A DNA stretch of 64,000 bases. Origin: Escherichia coli. Lineage in GTDB: Bacteria; Pseudomonadota; Gammaproteobacteria; Enterobacterales; Enterobacteriaceae. Positions 9,103-36,259 of the stretch are shown here, in pieces (position 1 is the first letter of the stretch; each line of letters starts with the position of its first letter). Where the stretch lies: the NCBI RefSeq assembly GCF_050920415.1, contig NZ_CP169309.1; one strand, given 5' to 3'. Both the position numbers and the translations under genes were made by a program. Under the pieces are notes generated by a model. That model worked only from the letters and a program-made list of their open reading frames with translations, had not been told where the DNA came from and searched no databases.

Positions 9103-11473
<2,371 letters not shown>

Positions 11474-11478
11474 GGCGA

Positions 11479-12378
11479 TCACTCCATCATCTTCTCAATC
11501 GGCAGGACCAGGATTGAACTGGCACCCAGCGCTTTCAGTTTTTCCATCGTTTCCCAGAACAGGGTTTCGCTGCTGACCATGTGCATCGCTACGCGCTGTT
11601 GATCACCCGCCAGCGGTAGAATGGTTGGGCGTTCGGCACCTGGCAGCAGGGCGATGACTTCATCCAGTCGGTCGGTTGGTGCGTGCATCATGATGTATTT
11701 TGATTCGCGCGCCTGGATCACGCCCTGAATACGCGTCAGCAGTTTGTCGATCAGTTGCTGTTTGGATTCTTCCATTTCGCCATCGCGTTGGATCAGGCAG
11801 GCTTTCGAGCGGTAGATAACTTCGACTTCGCGCAGGCCGTTAGCTTCCAGCGTGGCACCGGTGGAAACCAGATCGCAAATCGCATCCGCCAGTCCGGCGC
11901 GCGGCGCAACTTCGACAGAACCGTTCAGTAAGCAGGATTTAAAAGAGATGCCTTTCTGATCGAGATAACGCTTGAGCAGGTGAGGATAAGAGGTGGCGAT
12001 ACGTTTACCGTTTAAGGAGAGCGGGCCGTCCCAGGCTTCATCAACCGGCGTTGCCAGCGAAAGGCGGCAGCCGCCGAAATCCAGACGACGCAGGGTAAAG
12101 TAGCGAGGATCTTCACCCTGGGCGCGGCGGTTAAGCAGCTCTTCTTCCAGCACGTTTTCGCCGATAATCCCAAGGTCAACCACGCCGTCCATTACCAGAC
12201 CGGGAATGTCGTCGTCACGCACGCGCAGAATATCAATCGGCATGTTTTCTGCCATCGCGATCAGGCGCTGGGTGTGAAGATTAATTTTAATGCCGCAGCG
12301 CGCCAGTAATTCGCGTGAGTCATCACTTAAACGGCCGGATTTCTGCATAGCTATGCGTAAACGAGTGTTGTCTGTCAT
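11479..12378 (-). CDS. hisG: ATP phosphoribosyltransferase
   Basis: ORF 11479..12417; start at [17 protein letters not shown], 299 aa. Confidence 0.96.
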
Positions 12379-12422
12379 TTTCTTATTCCTCTTTAAACCT
12401 GTCTGAACCGTTATCAACCGCG

Positions 12423-12574: not shown

Positions 12575-12797
12575 AAAAGTCTCTGTGAATGTTTATTCAA
12601 CTGATGTCTTTTAACCTAAACCACTTTCACGTTAGAAAGCAAGGGCTTTTTTATATATTTTATGGCGATGGATTTGTTTAATGAATGAGCGGGGAAAGGA
12701 GAGGGCCAGGAGTGGCTACGTTAAAAAAGTAATCGTGAAAATATGTCTTTAAAACCCTCAAGAACATTGTGTTCTGTAACTAAAGTGGGCTTGGTTC

Positions 12798-12897
12798 CTG
12801 CCGGATGCGGCGTGAATGCCTTATCTGGTCTACAAATGTTGCCTAAATTCAATATATTGATGTTTTTGTAGGACTGATAAGCGGAGCGCATCAGGCA
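12798..12897. repeat. BIME-like pair of REP elements
   Basis: ccggatgcggcgtgaatgccttatctggtctac and gactgataagcggagcgcatcaggc, REP-type palindromes. Confidence 0.5.
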
Positions 12898-13000
12898 ATT
12901 GTATATTTGCTAACAGTTTCGATTTCATTCATAGAATGAATTGTCAGTTTTGATACGCTAGCGTAGCCTTATAGATCTAAGGTGTATCAGGAGATAACGG

Positions 13001-14800: not shown

Positions 14801-15066
14801 AGAAAAATTATTATGACAAGCCTCTCATTCTCTTGTCATTTCCCCCCCATTTAGGCACAATGCGCCGCTGTCAAAAAATGACTAAAAACCGACGTTTAAT
14901 TAGCGTCGGTTATTTTTTGCTTCAAACCAATCATTCATACCAAGAGGCCGGGCTTCGTACCGGATAGATATTTACTAAAAATCGACAGTTGTTGTCGCTG
15001 AGGAATCCAAAAAAATGGGGCAATTTTTTGCTTACGCGACGGTTATTACCGTAAAGGAGAATGACC

Positions 15067-16425
15067 ATGTCGCATAACGTTACTCCAAACACCTCTCGCG
15101 TGGAATTGCGTAAAACGCTTACGTTAGTTCCGGTTGTAATGATGGGTCTTGCCTATATGCAGCCGATGACGCTGTTTGATACATTTGGTATCGTTTCAGG
15201 CCTCACGGATGGTCATGTGCCGACAGCCTATGCGTTCGCATTGATTGCGATCCTGTTTACGGCTCTGAGCTACGGGAAGCTGGTTCGCCGCTATCCTTCT
15301 GCTGGCTCTGCATACACTTACGCCCAGAAATCCATTAGCCCGACCGTCGGCTTTATGGTGGGTTGGTCTTCTCTGCTCGACTATCTGTTCGCGCCGATGA
15401 TCAACATTCTGCTGGCGAAAATCTATTTTGAAGCTCTGGTGCCTTCCATCCCATCGTGGATGTTTGTGGTGGCGCTGGTGGCCTTTATGACCGCCTTTAA
15501 CCTGCGTAGTCTGAAATCCGTAGCGAACTTCAACACCGTCATCGTGGTGTTGCAGGTAGTGCTGATCGCGGTGATTCTGGGCATGGTTGTTTATGGCGTA
15601 TTTGAAGGTGAAGGCGCTGGTACGCTGGCGAGCACTCGTCCGTTCTGGTCTGGCGATGCGCATGTTATTCCGATGATTACCGGGGCGACAATCCTGTGCT
15701 TCTCCTTTACCGGCTTTGACGGCATCAGCAACCTGTCGGAAGAAACCAAAGATGCAGAGCGCGTGATCCCGCGTGCGATTTTCCTGACCGCGCTGATCGG
15801 CGGCATGATCTTCATCTTTGCAACTTACTTCCTGCAACTGTATTTCCCGGATATCTCTCGCTTTAAAGATCCGGATGCGTCACAGCCTGAAATCATGCTG
15901 TACGTTGCGGGTAAAGCGTTCCAGGTTGGCGCGCTGATCTTCTCCACCATTACCGTACTGGCGTCCGGTATGGCGGCGCACGCAGGCGTGGCGCGTCTGA
16001 TGTACGTAATGGGTCGTGACGGCGTATTCCCGAAAAGCTTCTTCGGTTATGTGCACCCGAAATGGCGTACTCCGGCAATGAACATCATCCTGGTTGGCGC
16101 GATTGCTCTGCTGGCAATCAACTTCGACCTGGTAATGGCTACGGCGCTGATTAACTTTGGTGCGCTGGTGGCGTTCACCTTCGTTAACCTGTCGGTTATC
16201 TCGCAGTTCTGGATCCGTGAGAAGCGTAACAAGACGCTGAAAGATCACTTCCAGTATCTGTTCCTGCCGATGTGTGGTGCGCTGACTGTAGGTGCGCTGT
16301 GGGTTAACCTGGAAGAAAGCTCAATGGTTCTGGGGCTGATCTGGGCGGCAATCGGTCTGATTTACCTGGCTTGCGTCACCAAGAGCTTCCGTAACCCGGT
16401 TCCGCAGTACGAAGACGTTGCATAA
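15067..16425 (+). CDS. plaP: Putrescine importer (APC-family amino acid/polyamine permease)
   Basis: ORF 15061..16425; start at [16 protein letters not shown], 452 aa, multi-TM. Confidence 0.9.
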
Positions 16426-16463
16426 TCTTACAAGCCGGATGACATAATCATCCGGTAAATCTC

Positions 16464-16496
16464 AAAAAGCCGGAGTTTGTCGCTCCGGCTTTTTTG
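16464..16496. terminator. Bidirectional terminator between convergent plaP and sbcB
   Basis: aaaaagccggag...ctccggctttttt. Confidence 0.75.
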
Positions 16497-16498
16497 TT

Positions 16499-17926
16499 TC
16501 AGACGATCTCTTCCGCGTACTGCCAAAGCGCTTTTAACAGCGCCACTTTCTCTTTGTCATCGGCATATTGTTGTGCCAGCATCTGCAATTCATCTGCATA
16601 GCCCTGCAAAAACTCTGGCGTGAAGACCTGGCGGCGGTGCTCCAGCCAGCGTTGCTGCTCGGCATAATCCAGCGTCCCCGGGAAGTTGCGTGCTCGATAA
16701 TTGAACAACAGCTTTTCAATCCGTTTATCAACAAAAGTGATATCCAGTGCCGGTAAATTACGCGGCTCGGTTTCAAGCACAATTTTCATTGCTGCACGAT
16801 CGGCGTCACTGAAAAAGCCATTATAAAGCTGTGCATCCACGTTATCTGAAGGCGTAAACGGTTCGGCTTCGGCGAATATCGCCACCACTTTTTCACGCAC
16901 TTGCGGATTTTCACGCAGAATTTTCAGGTTATCGAGGCAATGCTGACGATTAATTCCCAGTCGGTCGGCATCTTCCGGGCGTAGCGTATTCGCCTGGGCC
17001 AGCACCGGACATTTATTGATATGCACCAGTTTAACCGGAACGGCGGCGTTATCGCCAAGATCGGCTTTTGCGGTATATAAACGCTCGCGCAATGTGTCGC
17101 TATCCAGCTCCAGTAATGGCGAAATGTCTCCTGCCAAATCCACCATAATTACGGCATTGCGATTTTCAGGATGCCACGCCAGCGGTGCTACCCAGCTGGT
17201 ATTGCCGCGCCATGCCCCAAACATTCCGGAAACGTGAACCAGGGGTTTCATCTGCGGAACATCAATCAACGCCATCAGTTTGTGTTTATTGCGATGGGTA
17301 AAGAGATAATCAAATAGGCGTGGCTGACGCATTTTTACCAGCTTTGCCATCGCAATAGTGGCGTACACATCAGCCATCGCATCGTGGGCGTTGCTATGTT
17401 CAATACCATTCGCTTTGGTTAAATGCTCAAGGCGAAAGCTCGGTAGACCGTCATCATTTTCAGGCCAGTTTATTCCTTCCGGGCGCAGGGCATAACAGGC
17501 ACGCATAACATCCAGTAAATCCCAGCGCGAGTTATCATGCTGCCAGCTCCAGGCGTAAGGATCGTAGAAATTACGATAAAAAACGTTGCGTGTGACTTCG
17601 TCGTCGAAACGCACATTGTTGTAGCCCAGAATACAGGTCTTCGGTACGGTAAAAAGCGAGTGAATACGGGCGGCAAACGCGGCTTCGTTTTCTCCTTTCG
17701 CCCGTGCTTCCTGCGGGGTAATACCGGTAATTAATACTGCTCCAGGCTGCGGTAAATAGTCATCCGCGGGCTTGCAGTAAAAAACTTCGGGTTCGCCGAT
17801 GACGTTGAATTCGTTATCAGTGCGAATGGCTGCGAACTGTGCAGGGCGATCTAACGCGGGGTGCGTTCCAAAGGTTTCGTAATCGTGAAACAAAAAGGTA
17901 GATTGTTGCTTACCGTCATTCATCAT
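16499..17926 (-). CDS. sbcB: Exodeoxyribonuclease I
   Basis: ORF 16499..17974; start at MMNDGKQQSTFLFHDYETFG, 475 aa. Confidence 0.95.
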   Translation of the reverse strand: MMNDGKQQSTFLFHDYETFGTHPALDRPAQFAAIRTDNEFNVIGEPEVFYCKPADDYLPQPGAVLITGITPQEARAKGENEAAFAARIHSLFTVPKTCILGYNNVRFDDEVTRNVFYRNFYDPYAWSWQHDNSRWDLLDVMRACYALRPEGINWPENDDGLPSFRLEHLTKANGIEHSNAHDAMADVYATIAMAKLVKMRQPRLFDYLFTHRNKHKLMALIDVPQMKPLVHVSGMFGAWRGNTSWVAPLAWHPENRNAVIMVDLAGDISPLLELDSDTLRERLYTAKADLGDNAAVPVKLVHINKCPVLAQANTLRPEDADRLGINRQHCLDNLKILRENPQVREKVVAIFAEAEPFTPSDNVDAQLYNGFFSDADRAAMKIVLETEPRNLPALDITFVDKRIEKLLFNYRARNFPGTLDYAEQQRWLEHRRQVFTPEFLQGYADELQMLAQQYADDKEKVALLKALWQYAEEIV

Positions 17927-18134
17927 TAGGTTAAATCCGTTATTTCTGCTGTCTGCCAGAGTATCAAATATCACCGTGCTAATCAGCTTTAGCGCGACAA
18001 TTTGGCAGCGAGTGGCAACAGATCATGTCAGATAAAAATGAGATAGTAGTCACATTTTCTTGCACTTTATTCCAGCCAGTTCATAAGTATTTCCGTAAAA
18101 AGAACAGCTATTTGAAACACCTGAGGGTTTGCTG

Positions 18135-19301
18135 TTGAAACGCCGTCTTATTATTGCTGCTTCTTTGTTCGTTTTTAACTTATCGTCTGGTTTTGCGGCG
18201 GAAAACATTCCTTTTTCACCTCAGCCTCCAGAGATTCATGCCGGGTCCTGGGTACTGATGGATTACACCACCGGTCAGATTCTCACCGCGGGTAATGAGC
18301 ATCAACAGCGCAATCCCGCCAGCCTGACAAAGCTGATGACGGGCTATGTTGTGGATCGCGCTATCGATAGTCATCGCATTACGCCAGATGATATTGTCAC
18401 CGTGGGGCGCGATGCGTGGGCGAAAGATAATCCGGTGTTTGTCGGTTCTTCACTGATGTTTCTGAAAGAGGGCGATCGCGTATCGGTACGTGATTTAAGC
18501 CGTGGTTTAATTGTGGATTCCGGAAATGACGCTTGTGTTGCACTGGCTGACTATATTGCCGGTGGGCAACGGCAGTTTGTTGAAATGATGAACAACTATG
18601 CCGAGAAGCTGCATCTCAAGGATACGCATTTTGAAACAGTGCATGGTCTGGATGCACCTGGCCAGCATAGCTCGGCTTATGATTTAGCTGTGCTTTCTCG
18701 CGCTATCATCCACGGCGAGCCCGAGTTTTATCATATGTACAGTGAGAAAAGCCTCACCTGGAACGGTATTACCCAGCAAAACCGTAACGGGTTATTGTGG
18801 GATAAAACCATGAATGTTGACGGCCTGAAAACGGGTCATACTTCTGGTGCCGGGTTTAATCTCATTGCTTCGGCTGTGGATGGGCAGCGTCGTCTCATTG
18901 CAGTGGTAATGGGGGCTGACAGTGCAAAAGGTCGTGAGGAAGAGGCAAGAAAATTACTGCGTTGGGGGCAACAAAACTTTACTACAGTGAAAATTTTGCA
19001 CCGTGGGAAAAAGGTCGGGACGGAACGTATCTGGTATGGCGATAAAGAAACTATCGCCCTGGGAACGGAACAAGAGTTCTGGATGGTGCTACCTAAAGCC
19101 GAAATTCCACATATCAAAGCCAAATATACCCTTGATGGTAAAGAACTCACTGCGCCAATTAGCGCCCATCAGCGGGTAGGGGAAATTGAACTTTACGACC
19201 GTGATAAACAGGTGGCGCACTGGCCGCTGGTTACCCTGGAATCTGTCGGGGAAGGCAGCATGTTTTCCCGCCTGAGTGATTATTTCCACCATAAGGCCTG
19301 A
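18135..19301 (+). CDS. dacD: D-alanyl-D-alanine carboxypeptidase (PBP6b)
   Basis: ORF from 18129; likely TTG start giving MKRRLIIAASLF, 388 aa; SxxK motif region present. Confidence 0.9.
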   Translation: MKRRLIIAASLFVFNLSSGFAAENIPFSPQPPEIHAGSWVLMDYTTGQILTAGNEHQQRNPASLTKLMTGYVVDRAIDSHRITPDDIVTVGRDAWAKDNPVFVGSSLMFLKEGDRVSVRDLSRGLIVDSGNDACVALADYIAGGQRQFVEMMNNYAEKLHLKDTHFETVHGLDAPGQHSSAYDLAVLSRAIIHGEPEFYHMYSEKSLTWNGITQQNRNGLLWDKTMNVDGLKTGHTSGAGFNLIASAVDGQRRLIAVVMGADSAKGREEEARKLLRWGQQNFTTVKILHRGKKVGTERIWYGDKETIALGTEQEFWMVLPKAEIPHIKAKYTLDGKELTAPISAHQRVGEIELYDRDKQVAHWPLVTLESVGEGSMFSRLSDYFHHKA

Positions 19302-21751: not shown

Positions 21752-21934
21752 TTAGCGATAGCCTTCTTCTGTATGCAGCAAGGCAAAAAGTTCTGCAACT
21801 CCATTGTTATTAACCGCACTGGTTACTAACACATTGTGCGCTCCAGCTTCCCGTAACCAACTTTTCACCAAAGATATTTGTTCCATACTGGCTAAATCTG
21901 CTTTGGTGACTACTCCAATGACCGGGCGATTCAT
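21752..21934 (-). pseudogene. yoeF: Remnant of a PduV/EutP-like small GTPase gene (yoeF-like fragment)
   Basis: 60 aa ORF ...[25 protein letters not shown]... resembles the C-terminus of PduV/EutP-family proteins; no full-length partner frame. Confidence 0.45.
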
Positions 21935-22519
21935 TGACGAGGTAAAGCCTGGCGAAAAAGGTGACCACGGTGCGTCCGCATTAAGTACCAGCGCGATAAT
22001 GTCTGCTTCGCAGGCACTGACTAACAGAGCACTGTAGAGGCTGCGGTTTTATCGGTGAGGACTGGCAGCAAGATTTCCAGCCTTTTGACGGTGGGCCTGT
22101 GCAATCGTTATCAGATTCGTATAGCGATTATTCAGTGCTGCTATTGATAGCAGCTGAAAGCGAGATATCCGTACCAGAATAGCTCCCTCATTCTGAGGGA
22201 ACGACGGTAATTTTGATTGCAGAACACAATGCCCGTTTGCTGAATGGTCCGGCTGGTGGGGCTGTAGCATTAATCCATTATTTGAATGAAATCAGTCATG
22301 CCAGAGAAACCGCTGTCAATGACGCATTTTGTCGGACGTTAACACGAGGAAGTCTGGCTATTCCGCAATGCCATCTTCTTTCGTAATGGATTGAGAATGC
22401 TGGATTTTTAATTATATTACGCGCAGTATTAATCGCGTAAATGTTTTGCGGTCAGCAACAGTGGGGGAACCATTGTTCTGTTCAATGAATACCATCATAC
22501 AATTGAATCAGGAGTCGGT

Positions 22520-24957: not shown

Positions 24958-27208
24958 ATGATGCGTCGTGTAAATATTTTTTGCTCATTTGCTCTACTTT
25001 TTGCCAGCCATAATAGCCTGGCGGTAACTTATCCATTACCTCCAGAGGGTAGCCGTTTAGTGGGACAGTCGCTTACTGTAACTGTTCCTGATCACAATAC
25101 CCAGCCGCTGGAGACTTTTGCCGCACAATACGGGCAAGGGTTAAGTAACATGCTGGAAGCGAATCCGGGGGCTGATGTCTTCTTACCGAAGTCTGGCTCG
25201 CAACTCACCATTCCGCAGCAACTGATTTTGCCCGCCACTGTTCGTAAAGGGATTGTGATTAACGTCGCTGAGATGCGTCTTTATTACTACCCGCCAGACA
25301 GTAATACTGTGGAAGTCTTTCCTATTGGTATCGGCCAGGCTGGGCGAGAAACCCCGCGTAACTGGGTGACTACCGTTGAACGTAAACAAGAAGCACCAAC
25401 CTGGACGCCAACGCCGAACACCCGGCGCGAATATGCGAAACGAGGGGAGAGTTTGCCCGCATTTGTTCCTGCGGGGCCTGATAATCCCATGGGGCTGTAC
25501 GCGATTTATATTGGCAGGCTATATGCCATCCACGGTACCAATGCCAATTTTGGTATTGGGCTCCGGGTAAGTCAGGGCTGTATTCGTCTGCGCAATGACG
25601 ATATCAAATATCTGTTTGATAATGTTCCTGTAGGTACTCGTGAACCGCCCCGGAAATCCTGGAGACTAAACTTCCTGAGAAAGAGGTAAACAGGATGACT
25701 AAAAATACTCGTTTTTCCCCCGAAGTCCGTCAACGCGCAGTTCGTATGGTTCTGGAAAGTCAGGGCGAATATGACTCACAATGGGCGGCAATTTGTTCCA
25801 TTGCTCCAAAGATTGGCTGTACGCCAGAGACTCTGCGTGTCTGGGTTCGCCAGCATGAGAGGGATACCGGGAGCGGTGATGGTGGGCTCACCACCGCTGA
25901 ACGTCAGCGTCTGAAAGAGCTGGAACGTGAAAATCGTGAACTGCGCCGCAGTAACGATATCCTTCGCCAGGCTTCCGCTTATTTTGCGAAGGCGGAGTTC
26001 GACCGCCTCTGGAAAAAATAATGCCACTGCTGGATAAGCTGCGTGAGCAGTACGGGGTCGGACCGGTATGCAGTGAACTGCATATTGCCCCGTCAACGTA
26101 TTACCATTGTCAGCAGCAGCGGCATCATCCTGATAAACGCAGTGCCCGTGCGCAGCGCGATGACTGGCTGAAGAGAGAGATACAGCGCGTATACGATGAA
26201 AATCATCAGGTGTACGGTGTGCGTAAAGTCTGGCGTCAGTTGTTACGGGAAGGAATCAGGGTGGCCAGATGTACAGTGGCGCGCCTCATGGCGGTTATGG
26301 GACTTGCCGGTGTTCTCCGGGGTAAAAAGGTCCGCACTACCGTCAGCCGGAAAACCGTTGCCACAGGTGACCGCGTAAACCGTCAGTTCGTGGCAGAACG
26401 TCCTGACCAGCTGTGGGTGGCTGATTTTACTTACGTCAGCACATGGCAGGGCTTCGTCTATGTGGCGTTCATCATTGATGTGTTTGCCGGATACATCGTG
26501 GGGTGGCGGGTCTCATCGTCTATGGAAACGACATTCGTGCTGGATGCGCTGGAGCAGGCGTTGTGGGCCCGTCGTCCGTCTGGCACCATCCATCACAGCG
26601 ATAAAGGCTCTCAGTATGTGTCACTGGCCTATACGGAGCGACTAAAAGAAGCAAAACTGCTGGCATCAACAGGGAGTACAGGCGACTCGTATGACAACGC
26701 GATGGCTGAGAGCATCAATGGTCTTTACAAAGCGGAGGTAATACACCGTAAGAGCTGGAAAAACCGTGCAGAAGTGGAACTGGCCACACTCACGTGGGTG
26801 GACTGGTATAACAATCGACGATTGCTGGGAAGGCTGGGCCATACTCCTCCGGCAGAAGCAGAAAAAGCTTATTATGCTTCCATCGGAAACAATGATCTGG
26901 CAGCCTGAGTTCACAGATAAAACACTCTCCAGGAAACCCGGGGCGGTTCAACTCGTGTACAAATTATTGATCAGCCAGTGAAATACACAACGGAACCGGA
27001 TGGATCAAAGTGGCTGGAAGTTCATGAGCCACTGTCGCGCAACCGTGCGGAATATGAGTCAGACCGAAAAGTGCCTTTGCCAGTAACGCCATCTTTGCGG
27101 ACGTTCATTAACGGGCAAGAAGTTGATGTGAATCGCGCAAATGCTGCATTGCAGCGCCGATCAGGAATGCCTGTGCAAATTAGTTCTGGTTCAAGACAGA
27201 TGTTTTAA
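24958..27208 (+). pseudogene. ldtA: L,D-transpeptidase LdtA (ErfK) interrupted by an IS element; 5' part 24958..25640, 3' part 26951..27208
   Basis: N-terminal ORF ends ...DNVPVGTR at the IS boundary; the reading frame resumes exactly after the IS as TRVQIIDQPVKYTTEPDGS...SGSRQMF. Confidence 0.9.
25641..26950 (+). mobile_element. IS3-family insertion sequence, IS629/IS1203-like, 1310 bp, with orfA 25695..26021 and orfB 26021..26908
   Basis: Terminal inverted repeats TGAACCGCCCCGG...CCGGGGCGGTTCA; orfA (108 aa, HTH) and orfB (295 aa, DDE transposase) overlap at an A-rich slippery region; flanked by direct repeat ACTCG. Confidence 0.92.
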
Positions 27209-27592: not shown

Positions 27593-27608
27593 TGGCAAGT
27601 ATCTTGCA
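27593..27608 (+). promoter_or_regulatory. Sigma-54 type promoter (-24 GG / -12 GC) upstream of nac
   Basis: TGGCAagtatcTTGCA with canonical GG-N10-GC spacing, about 55 bp upstream of nac ATG. Confidence 0.7.
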
Positions 27609-27663
27609 ATCTGGTTGTAAGTAATGGCGGCACTTGGGCCGATTCTTATAAACCGGAGGCAAC

Positions 27664-28581
27664 ATGAACTTCAGACGCCTGAAATACTTCGTAAAAATTG
27701 TAGATATTGGTAGCCTGACCCAGGCTGCTGAAGTGTTGCATATCGCGCAACCCGCGCTCAGCCAGCAGGTTGCCACGCTGGAAGGTGAGTTGAATCAACA
27801 ACTTTTGATTCGCACAAAACGGGGCGTTACGCCAACAGACGCCGGAAAAATTCTCTATACCCATGCGCGGGCCATTTTACGTCAGTGTGAGCAGGCCCAA
27901 CTGGCGGTGCATAACGTTGGTCAGGCATTATCGGGGCAAGTCTCGATTGGCTTTGCACCAGGAACAGCGGCCTCATCTATCACCATGCCTTTATTGCAGG
28001 CGGTTCGCGCTGAATTCCCGGAAATTGTTATTTATCTCCATGAAAATAGCGGTGCTGTGCTCAACGAAAAACTGATAAGCCACCAACTCGATATGGCAGT
28101 AATTTATGAGCATTCTCCTGTGGCTGGTGTTTCCAGTCAGGCTTTGCTGAAAGAAGATCTTTTCCTGGTAGGAACGCAAGATTGCCCGGGGCAAAGCGTT
28201 GATGTTAATGCTATTGCGCAAATGAACCTCTTTCTCCCCAGCGATTACAGTGCCGTTAGACTTCGTGTTGATGAGGCTTTTTCCCTACGGCGACTCACGG
28301 CAAAAGTCATTGGTGAAATTGAGTCTATTGCCACGCTTACCGCAGCAATTGCCAGCGGCATGGGCGTTGCAGTATTACCCGAATCGGCCGCGCGTTCGTT
28401 ATGTGGCGCAGTAAACGGATGGATGTCACGCATTACCACACCTTCAATGAGTCTCTCTTTGTCATTAAATTTACCCGCCAGAGCGAACTTATCACCACAG
28501 GCGCAAGCAGTGAAAGAGTTGTTAATGTCAGTGATGAGTTCTCCAGTGATGGAAAAAAGGCAGTGGCAATTGGTGAGCTAA
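27664..28581 (+). CDS. nac: Nitrogen assimilation control protein (LysR family)
   Basis: 305 aa, MNFRRLKYFVKIVDIGSLTQAAEVLHIAQPALSQQ. Confidence 0.93.
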   Translation: MNFRRLKYFVKIVDIGSLTQAAEVLHIAQPALSQQVATLEGELNQQLLIRTKRGVTPTDAGKILYTHARAILRQCEQAQLAVHNVGQALSGQVSIGFAPGTAASSITMPLLQAVRAEFPEIVIYLHENSGAVLNEKLISHQLDMAVIYEHSPVAGVSSQALLKEDLFLVGTQDCPGQSVDVNAIAQMNLFLPSDYSAVRLRVDEAFSLRRLTAKVIGEIESIATLTAAIASGMGVAVLPESAARSLCGAVNGWMSRITTPSMSLSLSLNLPARANLSPQAQAVKELLMSVMSSPVMEKRQWQLVS

Positions 28582-28682
28582 GCGTTATATCGGGATGGAA
28601 TAAGATGCGGGTTTTTATTATTTGTTATGCCGGGCATTAAACTTTAACAATAACGTGATATCTGAACTGCCCGGAGTTTACC

Positions 28683-29633
28683 GTGAATTTCCAACAACTA
28701 AAGATAATCCGCGAGGCTGCACGTCAGGATTACAACCTGACAGAGGTTGCGAATATGCTTTTTACCTCACAGTCAGGCGTCAGCCGTCACATTCGGGAAC
28801 TGGAGGATGAACTTGGCATCGAAATATTTGTTCGACGAGGTAAGCGACTGCTGGGCATGACTGAACCGGGCAAAGCATTACTGGTCATTGCAGAACGTAT
28901 TCTGAATGAAGCCAGTAATGTTCGTCGGCTTGCAGACCTGTTTACCAACGATACGTCTGGCGTTCTCACTATTGCAACGACGCATACTCAGGCACGTTAT
29001 AGCTTGCCTGAGGTCATTAAAGCTTTTCGCGAACTTTTCCCGGAGGTTCGGCTGGAGCTAATCCAGGGTACACCACAGGAAATTGCGACGTTGTTGCAAA
29101 ATGGCGAAGCTGATATTGGTATCGCCAGCGAGCGTTTAAGTAATGACCCGCAGCTCGTCGCCTTCCCGTGGTTTCGTTGGCACCATAGTTTGCTTGTTCC
29201 ACTCGATCATCCCTTGACGCAAATTATACCGTTGACGCTGGAATCAATAGCGAAGTGGCCGTTAATCACTTACCGACAGGGGATTACGGGGCGCTCACGT
29301 ATTGATGACGCATTTGTCCGCAAAGGTTTGCTGGCAGATATTGTATTAAGTGCGCAGGATTCTGATGTCATTAAAACCTATGTTGCACTCGGGCTGGGGA
29401 TTGGATTAGTTGCCGAACAATCCAGCGGTGAACAAGAGGAAAAGAATTTAATCCGTCTGGATACGCGGCATCTTTTCGATGCTAATACTGTCTGGTTGGG
29501 ACTCAAGCGAGGACAACTTCAGCGTAACTATGTCTGGCGCTTTCTGGAACTTTGTAATGCAGGACTGTCAGTTGAGGATATCAAGCGCCAGGTGATGGAG
29601 AACAGTGAAGAGGAAATTGATTATCAGATATAG
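28683..29633 (+). CDS. cbl: CysB-like LysR-family regulator of sulfonate utilisation
   Basis: 316 aa, MNFQQLKIIREAARQDYNLTEVANMLFTSQSGVSRHIRELE. Confidence 0.93.
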   Translation: MNFQQLKIIREAARQDYNLTEVANMLFTSQSGVSRHIRELEDELGIEIFVRRGKRLLGMTEPGKALLVIAERILNEASNVRRLADLFTNDTSGVLTIATTHTQARYSLPEVIKAFRELFPEVRLELIQGTPQEIATLLQNGEADIGIASERLSNDPQLVAFPWFRWHHSLLVPLDHPLTQIIPLTLESIAKWPLITYRQGITGRSRIDDAFVRKGLLADIVLSAQDSDVIKTYVALGLGIGLVAEQSSGEQEEKNLIRLDTRHLFDANTVWLGLKRGQLQRNYVWRFLELCNAGLSVEDIKRQVMENSEEEIDYQI

Positions 29634-29634
29634 C

Positions 29635-29663
29635 AAAAAGCCCGCTATAAAAGCGGGCTTTTC
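29635..29663. terminator. Hairpin terminator between cbl and asnU
   Basis: aaaaagcccgctataaaagcgggctttt. Confidence 0.75.
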
Positions 29664-29670
29664 AGAAATT

Positions 29671-29746
29671 TGGCTCCTCTGACTGGACTCGAACCAGTGA
29701 CATACGGATTAACAGTCCGCCGTTCTACCGACTGAACTACAGAGGA
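29671..29746 (-). tRNA. asnU: tRNA-Asn (GUU)
   Basis: 76 nt, identical tRNA-Asn sequence on minus strand. Confidence 0.95.
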
Positions 29747-29906
29747 ATCGCTGTTGAGGCACATCTTAACGGCGAAAAATCTTTTGTCAAACCCGATTTT
29801 TAAATTTCCCAACTGTTTGCCGTTTCTATCAACAGTTTGTTGCATTTGCAGACAATTTGTTGGCGAAAATCTTTGCAGCTTTGCTGATTCTCCCTCATCA
29901 TTTGAA

Positions 29907-31394
29907 ATGTGGTTTCACTTTTTGCAATTAAGGTCGGCTTTGAATATCTCCTCTGCTTTACGCCAGGTTGTTCACGGCACTCGCTGGCACGCCAAACGCA
30001 AGAGCTACAAGGTGTTGTTCTGGCGCGAGATAACCCCGCTTGCTGTTCCTATCTTCATGGAGAATGCCTGTGTCCTGTTGATGGGTGTTTTGAGTACTTT
30101 TCTGGTCAGCTGGCTGGGAAAAGATGCGATGGCCGGCGTGGGATTGGCGGACAGCTTCAATATGGTCATTATGGCTTTTTTTGCAGCTATCGATCTTGGT
30201 ACTACTGTCGTTGTGGCATTTAGTCTCGGTAAGCGGGATCGACGACGAGCGAGGGTGGCGACGCGGCAGTCATTGGTGATCATGACGTTGTTTGCCGTAC
30301 TGTTGGCAACGCTTATTCATCATTTTGGCGAACAAATTATTGATTTCGTCGCAGGTGATGCCACGACAGAAGTTAAAGCACTGGCGTTGACTTATCTGGA
30401 GCTGACGGTACTCAGTTATCCAGCAGCTGCCATCACTTTGATTGGTAGCGGGGCACTTCGTGGTGCAGGGAATACGAAAATACCGCTACTGATTAACGGT
30501 AGCCTGAATATTCTTAATATTATTATTAGCGGCATATTGATTTACGGCCTTTTCTCCTGGCCGGGACTGGGATTTATCGGGGCTGGGTTGGGGTTAACCA
30601 TTTCTCGTTATATTGGCGCAGTGGCAATTTTGTGGGTGCTGGCGATTGGTTTTAATCCTGCGCTAAGGATTTCGTTAAAGAGCTATTTTAAACCGCTGAA
30701 TTTTAGCATTATCTGGGAAGTCATGGGGATTGGCATTCCTGCGAGTGTCGAATCAGTATTATTTACCAGTGGTCGGTTATTAACCCAAATGTTCGTTGCC
30801 GGGATGGGGACCAGTGTTATTGCCGGGAATTTTATCGCGTTTTCAATTGCGGCTCTTATCAACTTACCCGGAAGTGCGCTCGGCTCTGCTTCTACAATCA
30901 TTACAGGCCGAAGGTTGGGGGTAGGGCAGATAGCGCAAGCAGAGATTCAGTTGCGGCATGTGTTCTGGCTGTCCACTCTTGGATTAACGGCCATCGCCTG
31001 GCTAACGGCTCCCTTTGCTGGGGTTATGGCATCGTTTTACACCCAGGATCCACAGGTTAAACATGTCGTTGTGATTCTGATTTGGCTAAATGCTTTATTT
31101 ATGCCTATTTGGTCTGCCTCATGGGTGCTACCCGCTGGATTTAAGGGGGCTCGCGATGCCCGTTACGCCATGTGGGTTTCTATGTTGAGCATGTGGGGTT
31201 GCCGGGTTGTAGTCGGTTATGTGCTGGGAATCATGCTTGGCTGGGGTGTGGTTGGTGTCTGGATGGGAATGTTTGCCGACTGGGCTGTGCGGGCCGTGCT
31301 GTTTTACTGGCGCATGGTTACTGGACGTTGGCTGTGGAAATACCCTAGACCTGAGCCGCAAAAGTGTGAAAAAAAGCCAGTTGTGTCGGAATAA
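29907..31394 (+). CDS. yeeO: MATE-family multidrug/flavin efflux transporter
   Basis: ORF 29754..31394 (546 aa); start placed at internal Met MWFHFLQ (495 aa); 12-TM MATE-like; start uncertain. Confidence 0.8.
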   Translation: MWFHFLQLRSALNISSALRQVVHGTRWHAKRKSYKVLFWREITPLAVPIFMENACVLLMGVLSTFLVSWLGKDAMAGVGLADSFNMVIMAFFAAIDLGTTVVVAFSLGKRDRRRARVATRQSLVIMTLFAVLLATLIHHFGEQIIDFVAGDATTEVKALALTYLELTVLSYPAAAITLIGSGALRGAGNTKIPLLINGSLNILNIIISGILIYGLFSWPGLGFIGAGLGLTISRYIGAVAILWVLAIGFNPALRISLKSYFKPLNFSIIWEVMGIGIPASVESVLFTSGRLLTQMFVAGMGTSVIAGNFIAFSIAALINLPGSALGSASTIITGRRLGVGQIAQAEIQLRHVFWLSTLGLTAIAWLTAPFAGVMASFYTQDPQVKHVVVILIWLNALFMPIWSASWVLPAGFKGARDARYAMWVSMLSMWGCRVVVGYVLGIMLGWGVVGVWMGMFADWAVRAVLFYWRMVTGRWLWKYPRPEPQKCEKKPVVSE

Positions 31395-31494
31395 ACGACA
31401 AAGTGCAGATTATTTCAGCAAACGATTTCAAATTTAAAAAACAGGCTTTGACATTAAGGATGGGCATCGCTAATATTCGCCTCGTTCTCACGAT

Positions 31495-31570
31495 TCCTCT
31501 GTAGTTCAGTCGGTAGAACGGCGGACTGTTAATCCGTATGTCACTGGTTCGAGTCCAGTCAGAGGAGCCA
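31495..31570 (+). tRNA. asnW: tRNA-Asn (GUU)
   Basis: TCCTCTGTAGTTCAGTCGGTAGAACGGCGGACTGTTAATCCGTATGTCACTGGTTCGAGTCCAGTCAGAGGAGCCA. Confidence 0.95.
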
Positions 31571-31577
31571 AATTTTA

Positions 31578-31607
31578 GTTTTGAGACATCTCTATAAGTC
31601 TCAAAAC
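31578..31607 (+). terminator. Hairpin terminator after asnW
   Basis: gttttgagacatctctataagtctcaaaac. Confidence 0.7.
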
Positions 31608-32023
31608 AGTTAAAAAATAAAAATTATTTTTACCCGGTTACTTTGTAAAAAAGTGACCGGGTTTTTTGATTTCTGTGTTTCGTGCGCTTAATCGAGTCTC
31701 ACGCTTCAGTGAGCAAATTGCCCCTCCCCAACAGACATCACGATTCGCAAGGTCAAAAACTCTGTTCCATGAAGTACCGTACAAAGATAAAGAGAAAAAT
31801 GCCTTATGCGGGATGTCGCTATCGCGTCTTTATCGGGAAACTATGCGTAATTGCCACTTTGCCTTCTGTAATCAGAAAAAGAAGAACTGGAATTTTAATA
31901 AATATTATTTCTCTGGGACCGGTATTTTTATAATCAATATGACGAGTTGAATATTATGTTTATTATAAGATTTATATGAAATTAAAGAAATCTGCCATAA
32001 AGACAGATTTCTTTAAAATATAA

Positions 32024-32740
32024 TTAGAGATTTGCGACGTTATGATAAACTTTTTGAACATCGTCGTCATCTTCAAGGGCATCAACAAGCCCTTCAAAGA
32101 TTTCTAAATCTTCTGGGGAAAGCTCAACTTCAGATTGAGCAATCATTTCTAATTCTGTTGTTGAGAACTCAGTGATTCCAGCTGCTTTTAGAGCCGCGAT
32201 TCCTTTATGAAGGTCAGTTGGTTCAGTATAAATAACAATGTTACCTTCTTCTTCGGTCACATCGCGAACATCAACTTCAGCTTCAAGCAAAATTTCAAAA
32301 ATATGGTCCGGGTCTGTCCCTTTAAATACAATCACACCCGTATTGTCAAACATATAGCTGACAGAACCTGCCGCTCCGATATTGCCACCTTTTTTATTGA
32401 AAATTGTGCGAACGTTAGCAATTGTACGGTTAACATTGGAAGTCAATGTCTCGGCGATAATCATTGAGCCATTTGGACCAAAGCCTTCATAACGTCCCTG
32501 CACGAACGTTTCATCTCCGCCGCCTTTGGCTTTATCAATTGCTTTATCAATAACGTGCTTTGGAACTTGTGCCTGCTTCGCACGTTCAATAACGAATTTT
32601 AAAGATGTGTTTAATTCTGGATCGGGTTCACCTTGTTTGGCAGCAGCATAGATTTCTACACCGAATTTTGCATAAATTTTAGACGTTGCACCGTCTTTAG
32701 CCGTTTTTTTAGCAACAATATTGGCCCATTTACGTCCCAC
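32024..32740 (-). CDS. yeeN: YebC/PmpR-family probable transcriptional regulator
   Basis: 238 aa, [27 protein letters not shown]. Confidence 0.9.
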
Positions 32741-33081
32741 TGGAATGATCTCCTCGAAAATTTATTTACATTACTGGTAAATCGTTAACATGCGTTAATT
32801 CGACATATTATATCATAACAGGAAAAATCTCGTCTATTAGAAATAAAAATATTCTAAATCCATAATCTTATATTTAATCTCATAAAAACTAATGTTGTTG
32901 GCGGATTTTTTTATAATTGTGTTTTGAAAGCATACTTGCTTTTAATATATGGAAATCATTAAGGCTATAATAAAACTTGTATCCGCCCCAGGAAGCAAAC
33001 AGCCTGCTTTATTGCAGGCTATTTGCTGGATGACTTACTAAATCCTTCACATCTATTCCTGATAAAAAGGAACAGAACTTA

Positions 33082-34536
33082 TTACCGGAACGGCGGTTCA
33101 TTAAAGGTTCGTAATTTACGTGAATGCAGTCGGTCGCCTTCTGCGCGCAGCAAATCGATCGCACGAATGCCAATTTGCAGGTGTTCGGAAATAGCGCCTT
33201 CATAAAAACGGTTAGCCTGACCGGGAAGTTTAATCTCACCATGCAACGGTTTATCTGAAACACACAGTAGTGTCCCGTATGGCACGCGGAAACGATATCC
33301 TTGCGCGGCAATAGTTGCACTTTCCATATCAATTGCTACGGCCCGGCTTAAGTTAAAACGAAGTGCAGAAGCTGAGTAACGTAATTCCCAGTTCCTGTCA
33401 TCTGTGGTTACCACAGTGCCAGTACGTAGCCGCTGTTTAACTTCCTCTCCGGGCCTGCCGCTGACTAACTTGGTAGCGTCATAAAGCGCACGTTGCACTT
33501 CAGCAATGCTCGGAATAGGAATATCGGGCGGCAGTACCGCATCAAGAACGTGGTCATCGCGTAAATAAGCGTGTGCAAGTACATAATCTCCAATGGCCTG
33601 GCTTTCACGTAAGCCACCACAGTGACCAATCATCAACCAGACATCCGGGCGCAGCACCGCCAGATGATCGCAGATGGTTTTAGCATTTGACGGTCCCACG
33701 CCAATATTCACCAGAGTAATACCCTGACCATCGGCGGTAATTAAATGCCATGCTGGCATCTGGTGTTTTTTCCATGCAAGGTCGGAAATGGCTTCTTCTG
33801 GCGCTTCGGTTTCGGCGGTGATCCAGTTCCCGCCAGCACAAGAAAGGGCAATGTAGGGACTATCAGGGTCGAGGATCTGGCTGCATCCCCAACGAACGAA
33901 TTCATCCACATAACGTGTGTAGTTGGTAAACAAGACGAACGGCTGAAAATGTTCAACTGGCGTACCGGTATAATGGCGCAACCGCGCGAGGGAGAAATCG
34001 ACGCGGCGCGCATCAAAATGCGATAGCGGGGAGAATTCAGTTGGATGATAAATGCCGTCTGCAGTTTCATCGCCAATTTGCGCCAGTTCTGTTGTCGGGA
34101 AGTAGCGAGTTAACCCAGCGCTCATTGAGCGATCAAGTGTCAATTCAGAGCCATCGATGACATAAGGATAAGGGATTTCATGCTGCGAGGGTTGCACCGA
34201 GATATGCGCACCATAATCCTGATACAGCAACGTAAGTTGTTCATTCAGATACGAACGAAAGAGAGTAGGGCGAGTAATCGTGGTGGTGTAGCTGCCTGCG
34301 TGAGTAAAACGACCAAATGCGCGCGTTTTGGGGGGATTTGTTGTGCTACCGTCCCAGGTTACGGTCAGTGATGGATAGACAAAAAGACCTTCTTTACGGG
34401 CATTTTCATCAGGTAATTCGCCACTTTTAATATAGTTGCCAATGGCATTGCGTAAAGCGACTACAGATTGCTCATACAGCGCGTCGAGTTTTTCCAGTGC
34501 CTGAGCTGGGGTCAGACCGGAGCCCTTATTATTCAT
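33082..34536 (-). CDS. amn: AMP nucleosidase
   Basis: ORF 33082..34692; start at MNNKGSGLTPAQALEKLDALYEQS, 484 aa. Confidence 0.93.
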   Translation of the reverse strand: MNNKGSGLTPAQALEKLDALYEQSVVALRNAIGNYIKSGELPDENARKEGLFVYPSLTVTWDGSTTNPPKTRAFGRFTHAGSYTTTITRPTLFRSYLNEQLTLLYQDYGAHISVQPSQHEIPYPYVIDGSELTLDRSMSAGLTRYFPTTELAQIGDETADGIYHPTEFSPLSHFDARRVDFSLARLRHYTGTPVEHFQPFVLFTNYTRYVDEFVRWGCSQILDPDSPYIALSCAGGNWITAETEAPEEAISDLAWKKHQMPAWHLITADGQGITLVNIGVGPSNAKTICDHLAVLRPDVWLMIGHCGGLRESQAIGDYVLAHAYLRDDHVLDAVLPPDIPIPSIAEVQRALYDATKLVSGRPGEEVKQRLRTGTVVTTDDRNWELRYSASALRFNLSRAVAIDMESATIAAQGYRFRVPYGTLLCVSDKPLHGEIKLPGQANRFYEGAISEHLQIGIRAIDLLRAEGDRLHSRKLRTFNEPPFR

Positions 34537-34637
34537 GTGTGTCTCCTGTTCCATACAATTACCGCACTTCCGATAGTATGTCACAGGAATGTGAAACAAA
34601 AGTGTAAGGCGAAGATCGGATGATCTTCGCCTGACTA

Positions 34638-35954: not shown

Positions 35955-36259
35955 AATGATCCTGTTTGTACTGTCTTTTTATAATTAGTATGGAAAAGGT
36001 AACTCACATTGCCGTCGATCTATAAACGAACCTTATGAGACTACCTCGACAGAGCGCATCTGCAAATGATTTTATGGCTGATTAACGGCAACATGAAAAA
36101 TTCGATGGAAGATGAAATCGCAGGAGTTGCATAAGGATTGAGCAGAGCACCTACAGTTTTGAGATATGAAACATAAAAGTCCGCATATGCACAAAATTGC
36201 ACCCTGATGATTCTGATAGACTGCATTGCATTTTAACCAGTAGGGAGGCGAGGTTAGGT

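What the first reader, a model, noticed from the sequence alone, without database searches (positions are those of the whole stretch)
16426..16498. plaP and sbcB are separated by only a 73-bp terminator: yeeD/yeeE (tsuAB) absent
From memory, K-12 carries yeeD and yeeE (thiosulfate uptake) between sbcB and plaP (yeeF). Here the two convergent genes share a single bidirectional terminator, which suggests a lineage-specific deletion or that K-12 carries an insertion.
Basis: partly seen in the sequence, partly recalled or inferred. Interest (0 to 1): 0.3.

Follow-up and report, generated by a model that had tools for sequence, protein, structure and literature searches.

The report
Common tsuAB-lacking plaP–sbcB junction allele
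This E. coli strain lacks the two-gene thiosulfate-uptake operon tsuAB (yeeED) that K-12 carries between plaP and sbcB, so the two genes meet at a 73-bp terminator spacer; about a fifth of sequenced E. coli share this published variant, so it is ordinary.

Summary
plaP (15067-16425, +) and sbcB (16499-17926, -) converge on a 73-bp spacer (16426-16498). K-12 has 1,520 bp there, carrying tsuA and tsuB. No tsuAB is found in the window or anywhere on the source chromosome (E. coli MFDS1022581).

The spacer holds two hairpins. One has no U-tract. The other is an A-tract/GC-stem/T-tract intrinsic terminator that can serve both genes. That terminator is plaP's own and is conserved across Enterobacteriaceae whether or not tsuAB is present.

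The empty junction is not private to this strain. It occurs in 1,214 of 5,426 complete E. coli genomes, including CFT073, ABU 83972, Nissle 1917 and ST131. E. whittamii has it too (69 of 73 bases identical). tsuAB is found in 4,209 genomes, an almost exact complement.

Across 76 scorable Enterobacteriaceae species, tsuAB is present at this same site in 23 and absent in 53, in a patchy pattern. Other lineages carry different cargo at the site.

The spacer is not a simple deletion product of the K-12 sequence, so this is an old allele. Whether it arose by loss or K-12's state by gain remains unresolved within Escherichia.

Strains lacking yeeD/yeeE were already reported by Iguchi et al. 2011. 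Interest is low.

The parts
15067..16425 (+). plaP (yeeF), putrescine/proton symporter; its stop codon TAA is at 16423-16425
   Evidence: Annotated in the 100%-identical RefSeq record. 100% tblastn identity to K-12 PlaP. APC-family amino-acid permease hits.
16426..16498 (.). 73-bp convergent intergenic spacer, the tsuAB-empty allele of the plaP-sbcB junction
   Evidence: Sequence. Does not align with K-12's 178-bp and 42-bp spacers except for the terminator stem. Shared by 1,214 complete E. coli genomes and by E. whittamii at 69/73. No Rfam match.
16434..16456 (.). Hairpin 1 (GCCGGATGA-cataa-TCATCCGGT), 9 pairs, no U-tract; function unknown, possibly a 3'-end stabiliser
   Evidence: Fold energy -14.4 kcal/mol, z = -6.1. 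Single copy in the window. Conserved in B2 strain W224N and, with one stem change, in E. whittamii. Absent from the K-12 allele.
16464..16494 (.). Bidirectional intrinsic terminator: A-run 16464-16468, GC stem-loop 16469-16489 (GCCGGAGt-ttgtc-GCTCCGGC), T-run 16490-16495
   Evidence: Fold energy -19.6 kcal/mol on the + strand, with an equivalent hairpin followed by UUUUUGAGAUUU on the - strand. The CCGGAG...CTCCGG + T-run core lies downstream of plaP in nearly all of the ~75 Enterobacteriaceae loci examined, with or without tsuAB; a few lineages (L072, L081, L083, L084) have a different hairpin there.
16499..17926 (-). sbcB, exodeoxyribonuclease I; its stop codon (TGA on the minus strand) is at 16499-16501
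   Evidence: NCBIfam NF008746, 813 bits against a cut-off of 260. RefSeq annotation. Homology with K-12 resumes within the stop codon, at 16501.

Best explanation
The 73-bp spacer is the tsuAB-empty allele of a long-standing presence/absence polymorphism at the plaP-sbcB junction. It consists of plaP's own conserved Rho-independent terminator, which here sits 4 bp from the sbcB stop codon. Because an A-run and a T-run flank it, it can terminate both convergent transcripts. A second, upstream hairpin of unknown role is also present. In K-12-type genomes a cassette of about 1.45 kb lies between this terminator and the sbcB stop. The cassette comprises a conserved tsuA upstream region, tsuA, tsuB and a separate GC-rich hairpin. 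This strain has no tsuAB anywhere on its chromosome. It should therefore lack the TsuA/TsuB (YeeE/YeeD) thiosulfate uptake route and depend on CysPUWA for thiosulfate and sulfate (inference). The empty allele is old and widespread: about 22% of complete E. coli genomes, including B2 archetypes, and E. whittamii. It was not produced by a recent deletion in this strain. My preferred history, about 50% likely, is as follows. tsuAB was resident at this site early in the Enterobacteriaceae. It was lost in an Escherichia ancestor. The two alleles have since been sorted among lineages and exchanged by homologous recombination, including the large his/O-antigen-region replacements documented in E. coli.
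For: Anatomy. K-12 layout. Absence from the window and the chromosome. Counts: the junction occurs in 1,212-1,214 of 5,426 genomes and tsuAB DNA in 4,209, which are nearly complementary. Every tsuAB-less genome sampled had a single matching place. The named strains CFT073, ABU 83972, Nissle 1917 and ST131 carry the empty junction. E. whittamii has the same spacer, 69/73. The K-12 and window spacers do not align between the plaP stop and the terminator or in the terminator loop, although the flanking coding sequence is 95-96% identical. In 22 other species, tsuAB sits at the same site in the same orientation, with a conserved upstream motif and its own terminator. TsuA identity tracks SbcB identity (Pearson r = 0.75; E. 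coli against Citrobacter is 90-92% for TsuA and 92-93% for SbcB). Decay is visible elsewhere: tsuA is split in Trabulsiella and truncated forms occur in Shigella flexneri. Literature: three O157:non-H7 strains lack yeeD/yeeE, and fragments of at least 34 kb including the his operon are exchanged (PMC3158064). YeeE/YeeD are needed for growth on thiosulfate only when cysPUWA is deleted (PMC11073785).
Against: Unweighted parsimony on an SbcB neighbour-joining tree gives 'absent' at the root, with 9 changes; a losses-only history needs 16 events and a gains-only history 10. No tsuAB remnants were found in any empty spacer, including the 649-bp one. The same site holds unrelated cargo in other lineages and an IS200C in strain p11B, so insertion there is clearly possible. 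Some TsuA pairs are much more alike than their SbcB (92-93% against 83-84%), which suggests some lateral movement. Terminator activity and the thiosulfate phenotype are inferred, not measured.
Confidence: 0.8

Rival explanations
1. Gain rather than loss. The ancestor of E. coli and E. whittamii had the empty junction, as B2 strains and this window still do. The lineage leading to the A, B1 and E strains examined acquired the tsuAB cassette by homologous replacement, through the conserved plaP and sbcB flanks, from another Escherichia or a close enteric relative. On this view K-12 carries the insertion.
For: E. whittamii and the B2 archetypes share the empty allele. Fitch parsimony on the SbcB tree puts 'absent' at the root. 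The site accepts other cargo and IS200. plaP shows two protein classes that cut across genera, which indicates inter-genus allele replacement next to the junction. Some TsuA pairs are more alike than expected from SbcB. TsuA is about 70% identical to Paenibacillus and Bacillus YeeE, hinting at an ancient horizontal origin.
Against: E. coli TsuA is no closer to any sampled genus than SbcB is: the best is Citrobacter at 90-92%, against 92-93% for SbcB. No donor outside Escherichia is therefore visible. tsuAB diversity within E. coli (about 98.2-100% for nearly all genomes) resembles that of a resident core gene. The cassette's spacers are orthologous to those of tsuAB-positive Citrobacter.
Confidence: 0.25
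2. A recent deletion private to this strain or its clone removed tsuAB from a K-12-like junction.
For: The window's strain is an outlier: only its own record reaches 99% identity or more over 1.1 kb and over 8.4 kb.
Against: The same spacer occurs in 1,214 genomes and in E. whittamii. The sequence between the plaP stop and the terminator is unrelated to K-12's, which a simple internal deletion would have left intact.
Confidence: 0.02
3. An assembly or window artefact: tsuAB was collapsed or lies elsewhere in the genome.
For: None.
Against: The window is 100% identical to a complete circular chromosome at every stretch compared (about 11.5 kb in three queries). Over a thousand independent complete genomes have the same junction. 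There is no second tsuAB-like place on the source chromosome.
Confidence: 0.01

Closest known systems
The yeeD/yeeE-lacking sbcB-yeeF junction described in O157:non-H7 E. coli (Iguchi et al. 2011, PLoS One 6:e23250, PMC3158064)
   Same: The same locus and the same gene content (yeeZ-yeeY-yeeF directly followed by sbcB). The same neighbouring polymorphisms are reported: yoeB-yefM missing between yeeZ and hisL, and an IS200-like element between sbcB and yeeF. All three are seen here.
   Different: That paper reported it as a side observation in three strains. It did not give the frequency in E. coli, the spacer anatomy, or the distribution in other genera. I did not compare their sequences directly with the window.
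E. coli K-12 sbcB-tsuB-tsuA-plaP arrangement (b2011-b2014)
   Same: The flanking genes are orthologous (95-98% DNA identity). The stem of plaP's terminator (CCGGAG/CTCCGG plus a T-run) is shared.
   Different: K-12 has 1,520 bp between the two stop codons. This comprises a 178-bp plaP-tsuA spacer, tsuA, tsuB, and a 42-bp spacer with its own hairpin CCTCCGCCG...CGGCGGAGG. The window has 73 bp, a different sequence ahead of the terminator, and an extra hairpin.
Bidirectional Rho-independent terminators between convergent bacterial genes
   Same: A GC-rich stem-loop flanked by an A-run and a T-run, placed between two converging stop codons.
   Different: Activity was not measured here. It lies only 4 bp from the sbcB stop. 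A second hairpin without a U-tract sits beside it.

Membership tests
Intrinsic (Rho-independent) terminator, bidirectional | Stable GC-rich stem-loop | tested here: met
   16464-16494 folds at -19.6 kcal/mol, z = -6.0, with none of 200 shuffles as stable.
Intrinsic (Rho-independent) terminator, bidirectional | A U-tract immediately 3' of the stem on both strands | tested here: met
   The + strand has TTTTTTGTTT after the stem. The - strand has CTTTTTGAGATTT. The consensus scanner did not list it, probably because its stem extension uses up the T-run.
Intrinsic (Rho-independent) terminator, bidirectional | Transcripts end at the hairpin in vivo | not testable with these tools
   Needs Term-seq, 3'-RACE or a reporter assay.
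tsuAB (yeeED) thiosulfate-uptake operon | A YeeE/YedE-family membrane protein gene (PF04143) followed by a TusA-family gene (PF01206) between plaP and sbcB | tested here: not met
   No tblastn hit in the window. No blastn hit on the source chromosome. K-12-type contigs show PF04143 and PF01206 at that position.
REP/BIME repetitive extragenic palindrome (considered for hairpin 1) | Many dispersed copies per genome of a shared palindromic consensus | tested here: not met
   The hairpin 1 sequence occurs once in the window even with 3 mismatches allowed. The 103-bp junction query gives 1,215 places in 1,214 genomes. A canonical REP lies elsewhere in the window, within the hisL-yeeZ interval 12575-13000.
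Known structured RNA families (Rfam 15) | A covariance-model match | tested here: not met
   No match up to E = 1 in 15000-18200 on either strand.

The most novel reading that the evidence does not exclude
The boundary between plaP's terminator and the sbcB stop codon may be an ancient cargo site that stays polymorphic across species throughout the Enterobacteriaceae. Alternative states would be empty, tsuAB, an EF-G-like gene with an ArsR-like gene, a low-GC sulfatase-like gene, or IS200. These states would be kept in circulation by homologous replacement through unusually conserved flanks. The plaP gene's two discrete protein classes, which cut across genera, would be the footprint of that exchange.
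Probability: 0.3. Interest if true: 0.35.

Novelty: already known. Interest (0 to 1): 0.12.

Why it matters
It matters little as a discovery. The gene-content difference is visible in every RefSeq annotation of B2 strains and was noted in print in 2011. Its practical value is modest. It predicts that about a fifth of E. coli, including major extraintestinal pathogens and Nissle 1917, lack the TsuA/TsuB thiosulfate route and rely on CysPUWA alone. That could matter in the inflamed gut, where thiosulfate and tetrathionate are available. It also gives a clean PCR-size marker (73 bp against 1,520 bp between plaP and sbcB). The family-wide patchiness and the plaP dimorphism are small leads for anyone studying recombination around the his/O-antigen hot region.

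Tried and rejected
1. I looked for direct repeats or shared ends that would mark a deletion between the K-12 spacers and the window. Only the terminator stem and chance 8-14-mers matched.

2. I looked for tsuAB remnants in empty spacers. This included blastx of the 649-bp spacer of Enterobacter sp. Bisph1. Nothing scored better than E = 0.7.

3. I tried to reach other Escherichia species. The MOD1-EC7003 contig runs out about 280 bp beyond sbcB, in sequence unrelated to either allele that I read as an IS end, so it is uninformative.

4. Exact-protein look-ups with K-12 PlaP and TsuB returned only E. coli contexts, at 97% or more sbcB/dacD identity. The members sampled from the TsuA clusters were E. 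coli, Shigella and Citrobacter only.

5. The first chimeric query, meant to test the source genome for tsuAB, failed. sbcB and tsuAB were joined into one place and outranked the source. It was redesigned with a distant anchor and then worked.

6. Hairpin 1 was considered as a REP element or a small RNA and rejected.

7. Sliding-window identity found no raised divergence next to the junction that would mark a recombination breakpoint.

8. Literature searches pairing yeeE with 'phylogroup B2' found nothing.

Full report
**What is in the sequence**

plaP runs from 15067 to 16425 on the + strand and ends in TAA. sbcB runs from 16499 to 17926 on the - strand and ends in TGA. The two converge on a 73-bp spacer, 16426-16498.

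Wherever it was compared (about 11.5 kb in three queries), the window is 100% identical to the complete chromosome of E. coli MFDS1022581 (NZ_CP169399.1), a food isolate from Korea. The RefSeq annotation of that record gives the gene order hisL, yeeZ, yeeY, yoeI, plaP, sbcB, dacD, sbmC, yeeA, tmaR. NCBIfam scores confirm sbcB, dacD, sbmC and hisG.

K-12 MG1655 has sbcB, tsuB (yeeD), tsuA (yeeE), plaP, with 1,520 bp between the sbcB and plaP stop codons.

**Is tsuAB really absent?**

tblastn with K-12 TsuA and TsuB finds nothing in the 64-kb window, while PlaP, SbcB, DacD, YeeY and YeeZ are all found.

To test the whole genome I built a chimeric query: 2 kb of the window's amn-shiA region plus 1.3 kb of K-12 tsuAB. 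In blastn mode the source chromosome ranks first and matches at one place only, the amn-shiA part. tsuAB-positive genomes match at two places. So no tsuAB-like DNA exists on that chromosome down to roughly 65-70% identity. The strain's plasmids were not examined individually.

**Anatomy of the spacer**

The spacer folds into two hairpins on either strand. Total energy is -34 kcal/mol on the + strand (z = -7.65) and -31.9 kcal/mol on the - strand.

- Hairpin 1 (16434-16456, GCCGGATGA/TCATCCGGT, -14.4 kcal/mol) has no U-tract.
- Hairpin 2 (16464-16494, -19.6 kcal/mol) has a GC core GCCGGAG/CTCCGGC, preceded by AAAAA and followed by TTTTTTGTTT. This is the classical shape of a bidirectional intrinsic terminator.

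Hairpin 2 ends 4 bp before the sbcB stop codon. The consensus scanner did not list it, probably because it extends the stem through the A/T runs and so uses up the tail. I treat that as a limitation of the tool.

There is no Rfam match and no promoter-like site. The only ORFs touching the spacer are mechanical TTG-started ones of 32-48 codons. Hairpin 1 is single-copy in the window, so it is not a REP element.

**How common is the allele in E. coli?**

- A 1.1-kb query across the junction is contiguous in 1,212 of 5,426 complete genomes and split in the rest.
- A 103-bp junction-specific query hits 1,214 genomes.
- K-12 tsuAB DNA is found in 4,209 genomes.

The two sets are almost exactly complementary. 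All 13 tsuAB-less genomes sampled in a spread listing had no second matching place.

Carriers of the empty junction include CFT073, ABU 83972, Nissle 1917, O25b:H4-ST131 and PCN033. I know the first four to be phylogroup B2; that is my own knowledge, not a tool result. K-12, BL21, O157:H7 and O55:H7 carry tsuAB.

The window's own strain is an unusual lineage. No other genome reaches 99% identity over 1.1 kb or over 8.4 kb. Its flanks are about equally distant (roughly 97.5-98%) from K-12 and from the cerebrospinal-fluid isolate W224N, which also carries the empty junction. Most of its nearest relatives in the amn-shiA region are also tsuAB-less.

**Not a simple deletion of the K-12 sequence**

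Alignment with K-12 breaks two bases after the plaP stop codon and resumes inside the sbcB stop codon.

Between them, K-12 has TCATCTTTTCTAATAAT followed by the terminator AAACCGGAG-(16-nt loop)-CTCCGGTTTTTTT. The window has a different 38 bp containing hairpin 1, then AAAAAGCCGGAG-(short loop)-CTCCGGCTTTTTT. An internal deletion in a K-12-like ancestor would have left the plaP-proximal part intact, and it did not.

By contrast, E. whittamii has the same 73-bp spacer with four differences, and strain W224N has it with one difference. The empty allele is therefore an old haplotype that either predates or has crossed the boundary between E. coli and E. whittamii.

**The same polymorphism across the family**

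A genome-contig scan with SbcB returned 80 species-representative loci. I located TsuA, TsuB, PlaP, DacD, YeeY and YeeZ in each by tblastn. The states at the junction were:

| State | Species |
|---|---|
| tsuAB between sbcB and plaP | 22 (23 with K-12) |
| Short spacer of 52-163 bp | 44 (45 with the window) |
| Unrelated 649-bp spacer | 1 |
| Other inserts of 2.8-3.0 kb | 7 |
| Not scorable | 6 |

- **tsuAB-positive species:** tsuAB has the same orientation in all of them. They include C. amalonaticus, C. youngae, Kluyvera, some Kosakonia, Trabulsiella, Pseudocitrobacter, Superficieibacter, Huaxiibacter and one Lelliottia. In one of them, Pseudocitrobacter vendiensis, a further 5.8 kb separates tsuB from sbcB.
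- **Other inserts:** in Klebsiella and Raoultella the insert carries an EF-G-like gene and an ArsR-like gene. In Enterobacteriaceae bacterium 89 it is a 36%-GC segment with a sulfatase-like gene.

In both the tsuAB-positive and the empty state, the plaP terminator core (CCGGAG-loop-CTCCGG plus a T-run) is conserved. In the tsuAB-positive state it is followed by a conserved upstream motif (TAATAACC...TTAGAG...TTTGGTTATTGG), then tsuA, tsuB and a separate GC hairpin. The variable point is therefore the few bases between plaP's terminator and the sbcB stop codon. IS200C sits at that same point in strain p11B.

**Direction of change**

Evidence for ancestral presence followed by losses:

- The cassette has the same architecture in all genera.
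- TsuA identity tracks SbcB identity (Pearson 0.75). E. coli against Citrobacter gives 90-92% for TsuA and 92-93% for SbcB.
- Diversity of tsuAB within E. coli looks like that of a core gene.
- Decaying copies exist in Trabulsiella and Shigella flexneri.

Evidence against:

- Fitch parsimony on a single-gene SbcB neighbour-joining tree needs 9 changes and puts 'absent' at the root. A losses-only history needs 16 events and a gains-only history 10.
- No remnants survive in any empty spacer.
- The site demonstrably accepts insertions.
- Some TsuA pairs are much more alike than their SbcB, for example 93% against 83% between Lelliottia and Kosakonia.
- plaP shows two discrete protein classes that cut across genera, which points to inter-genus allele replacement right beside the junction.

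I could not sample E. albertii, E. fergusonii, E. marmotae, E. ruysiae or Salmonella. I therefore give loss in an Escherichia ancestor about 0.5 and gain in non-B2 E. coli about 0.25. A recent strain-specific deletion is refuted.

**Function and consequence (inferred)**

The published work shows that E. coli YeeE and YeeD together provide a thiosulfate uptake route. Its loss prevents growth on thiosulfate only when cysPUWA is also deleted (PMC11073785). The strain should therefore still assimilate thiosulfate through CysPUWA, and loss of tsuAB is probably close to neutral in most conditions. With tsuAB and its own hairpin gone, plaP's terminator is the only terminator-like hairpin left for sbcB, and its A-run/T-run symmetry fits that role. 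None of this was measured.

**Comparison with what is known**

Iguchi et al. 2011 (PMC3158064) sequenced about 59 kb around the O157-antigen cluster in five O157:non-H7 strains. They reported that three strains lacked yeeD and yeeE, that one had an IS200-like element between sbcB and yeeF, and that Sakai lacks yoeB-yefM between yeeZ and hisL. They concluded that fragments of at least 34 kb, including the his operon, are exchanged between strains.

The window shows the first and third features itself, and another genome in the collection shows the second. The finding is therefore already known in kind. My additions are the frequency, the spacer anatomy, the E. whittamii match and the family-wide pattern.

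**Verdict**

Novelty: already known. Interest: low (0.12).

Noticed in passing
L006-L085 (plaP in each locus); window 15067-16425: PlaP proteins from 74 Enterobacteriaceae loci fall into two discrete classes (22 and 50 loci). Identity is 90-100% within a class and 84-89% between classes, with 22 fixed differences, many clustered around residues 145-175 and 288-296. Class membership cuts across genera: E. cloacae differs from E. asburiae, and Kluyvera georgiana from K. cryocrescens. It is uncorrelated with SbcB identity (r = 0.12) or with tsuAB state. plaP DNA is also markedly more conserved than its flanks between E. coli and E. whittamii or Citrobacter. This suggests inter-genus allelic replacement.
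   Followed up: partly
L028, L034, L035, L056, L058, L069 (~9425-12400); L063 9425-12340: Klebsiella and Raoultella-type genomes carry a 2.8-3.0 kb insert between sbcB and plaP in place of tsuAB. It encodes a 700-aa EF-G-like protein, and at least in L056 an ArsR-like regulator. Enterobacteriaceae bacterium 89 carries a 2.9-kb, 36%-GC insert with a 517-aa sulfatase/LTA-synthase-like protein. The junction is a recurrent cargo site.
   Followed up: partly
L096 (E. coli p11B) ~900-1605; corresponds to window 16496/16497: An IS200C copy is inserted exactly between the terminator's T-run and the sbcB stop codon, the same point where tsuAB sits in K-12. Iguchi et al. 2011 saw an IS200-like element at this junction in strain PV57.
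   Followed up: partly
window 12575-13000: The yefM-yoeB toxin-antitoxin pair that K-12 has between hisL and yeeZ is absent. The 426-bp interval contains REP-like sequence instead. Its presence or absence is independent of the tsuAB state (L088 and L089 lack yefM-yoeB but have tsuAB). This polymorphism is known.
   Followed up: partly
window 24958-27206: An L,D-transpeptidase gene is split by a frameshifted IS3-family element, per the RefSeq annotation of the identical record.
   Followed up: no
window 21752-22386: Two pseudogene fragments lie between tmaR and cobU: a partial EutP/PduV-family gene and a cobalamin biosynthesis gene with an internal stop. They look like relics of a pdu/cbi region.
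   Followed up: no
L003 8527-8704 and the plaP-tsuA spacers of all tsuAB-positive loci: A conserved motif lies about 60-100 bp upstream of tsuA in most tsuAB-positive genera: TAATAACC-N-TTAGAG-N-TTTGGTTATTGG, with ATAACC/GGTTAT dyad symmetry, followed by AATAATTT. It is probably a regulator binding site. It was not analysed further and is not present in the window.
   Followed up: no
whole window (tested at 15900-17000 and 27600-36000): The source strain is a rare lineage. Among 5,426 complete E. coli genomes, only its own record reaches 99% identity or more; the next best is 97.5% over 1.1 kb and 98.3% over 8.4 kb. Its phylogroup was not determined.
   Followed up: partly
L027 9710-10716; protein cluster of P0003: tsuA appears to be decaying in some lineages. 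In Trabulsiella odontotermitis it is split into two overlapping tblastn segments. Many Shigella flexneri entries are truncated, at 84-309 aa.
   Followed up: no
proteins P0050-P0120: E. coli TsuA is 66-72% identical to YeeE proteins of Paenibacillus, Bacillus-group and Brevibacillus species. That is about as close as it is to homologues in other Enterobacterales such as Sodalis (71%) and Brenneria (75-76%). This suggests an old horizontal link between Firmicutes and Enterobacterales for this transporter.
   Followed up: no
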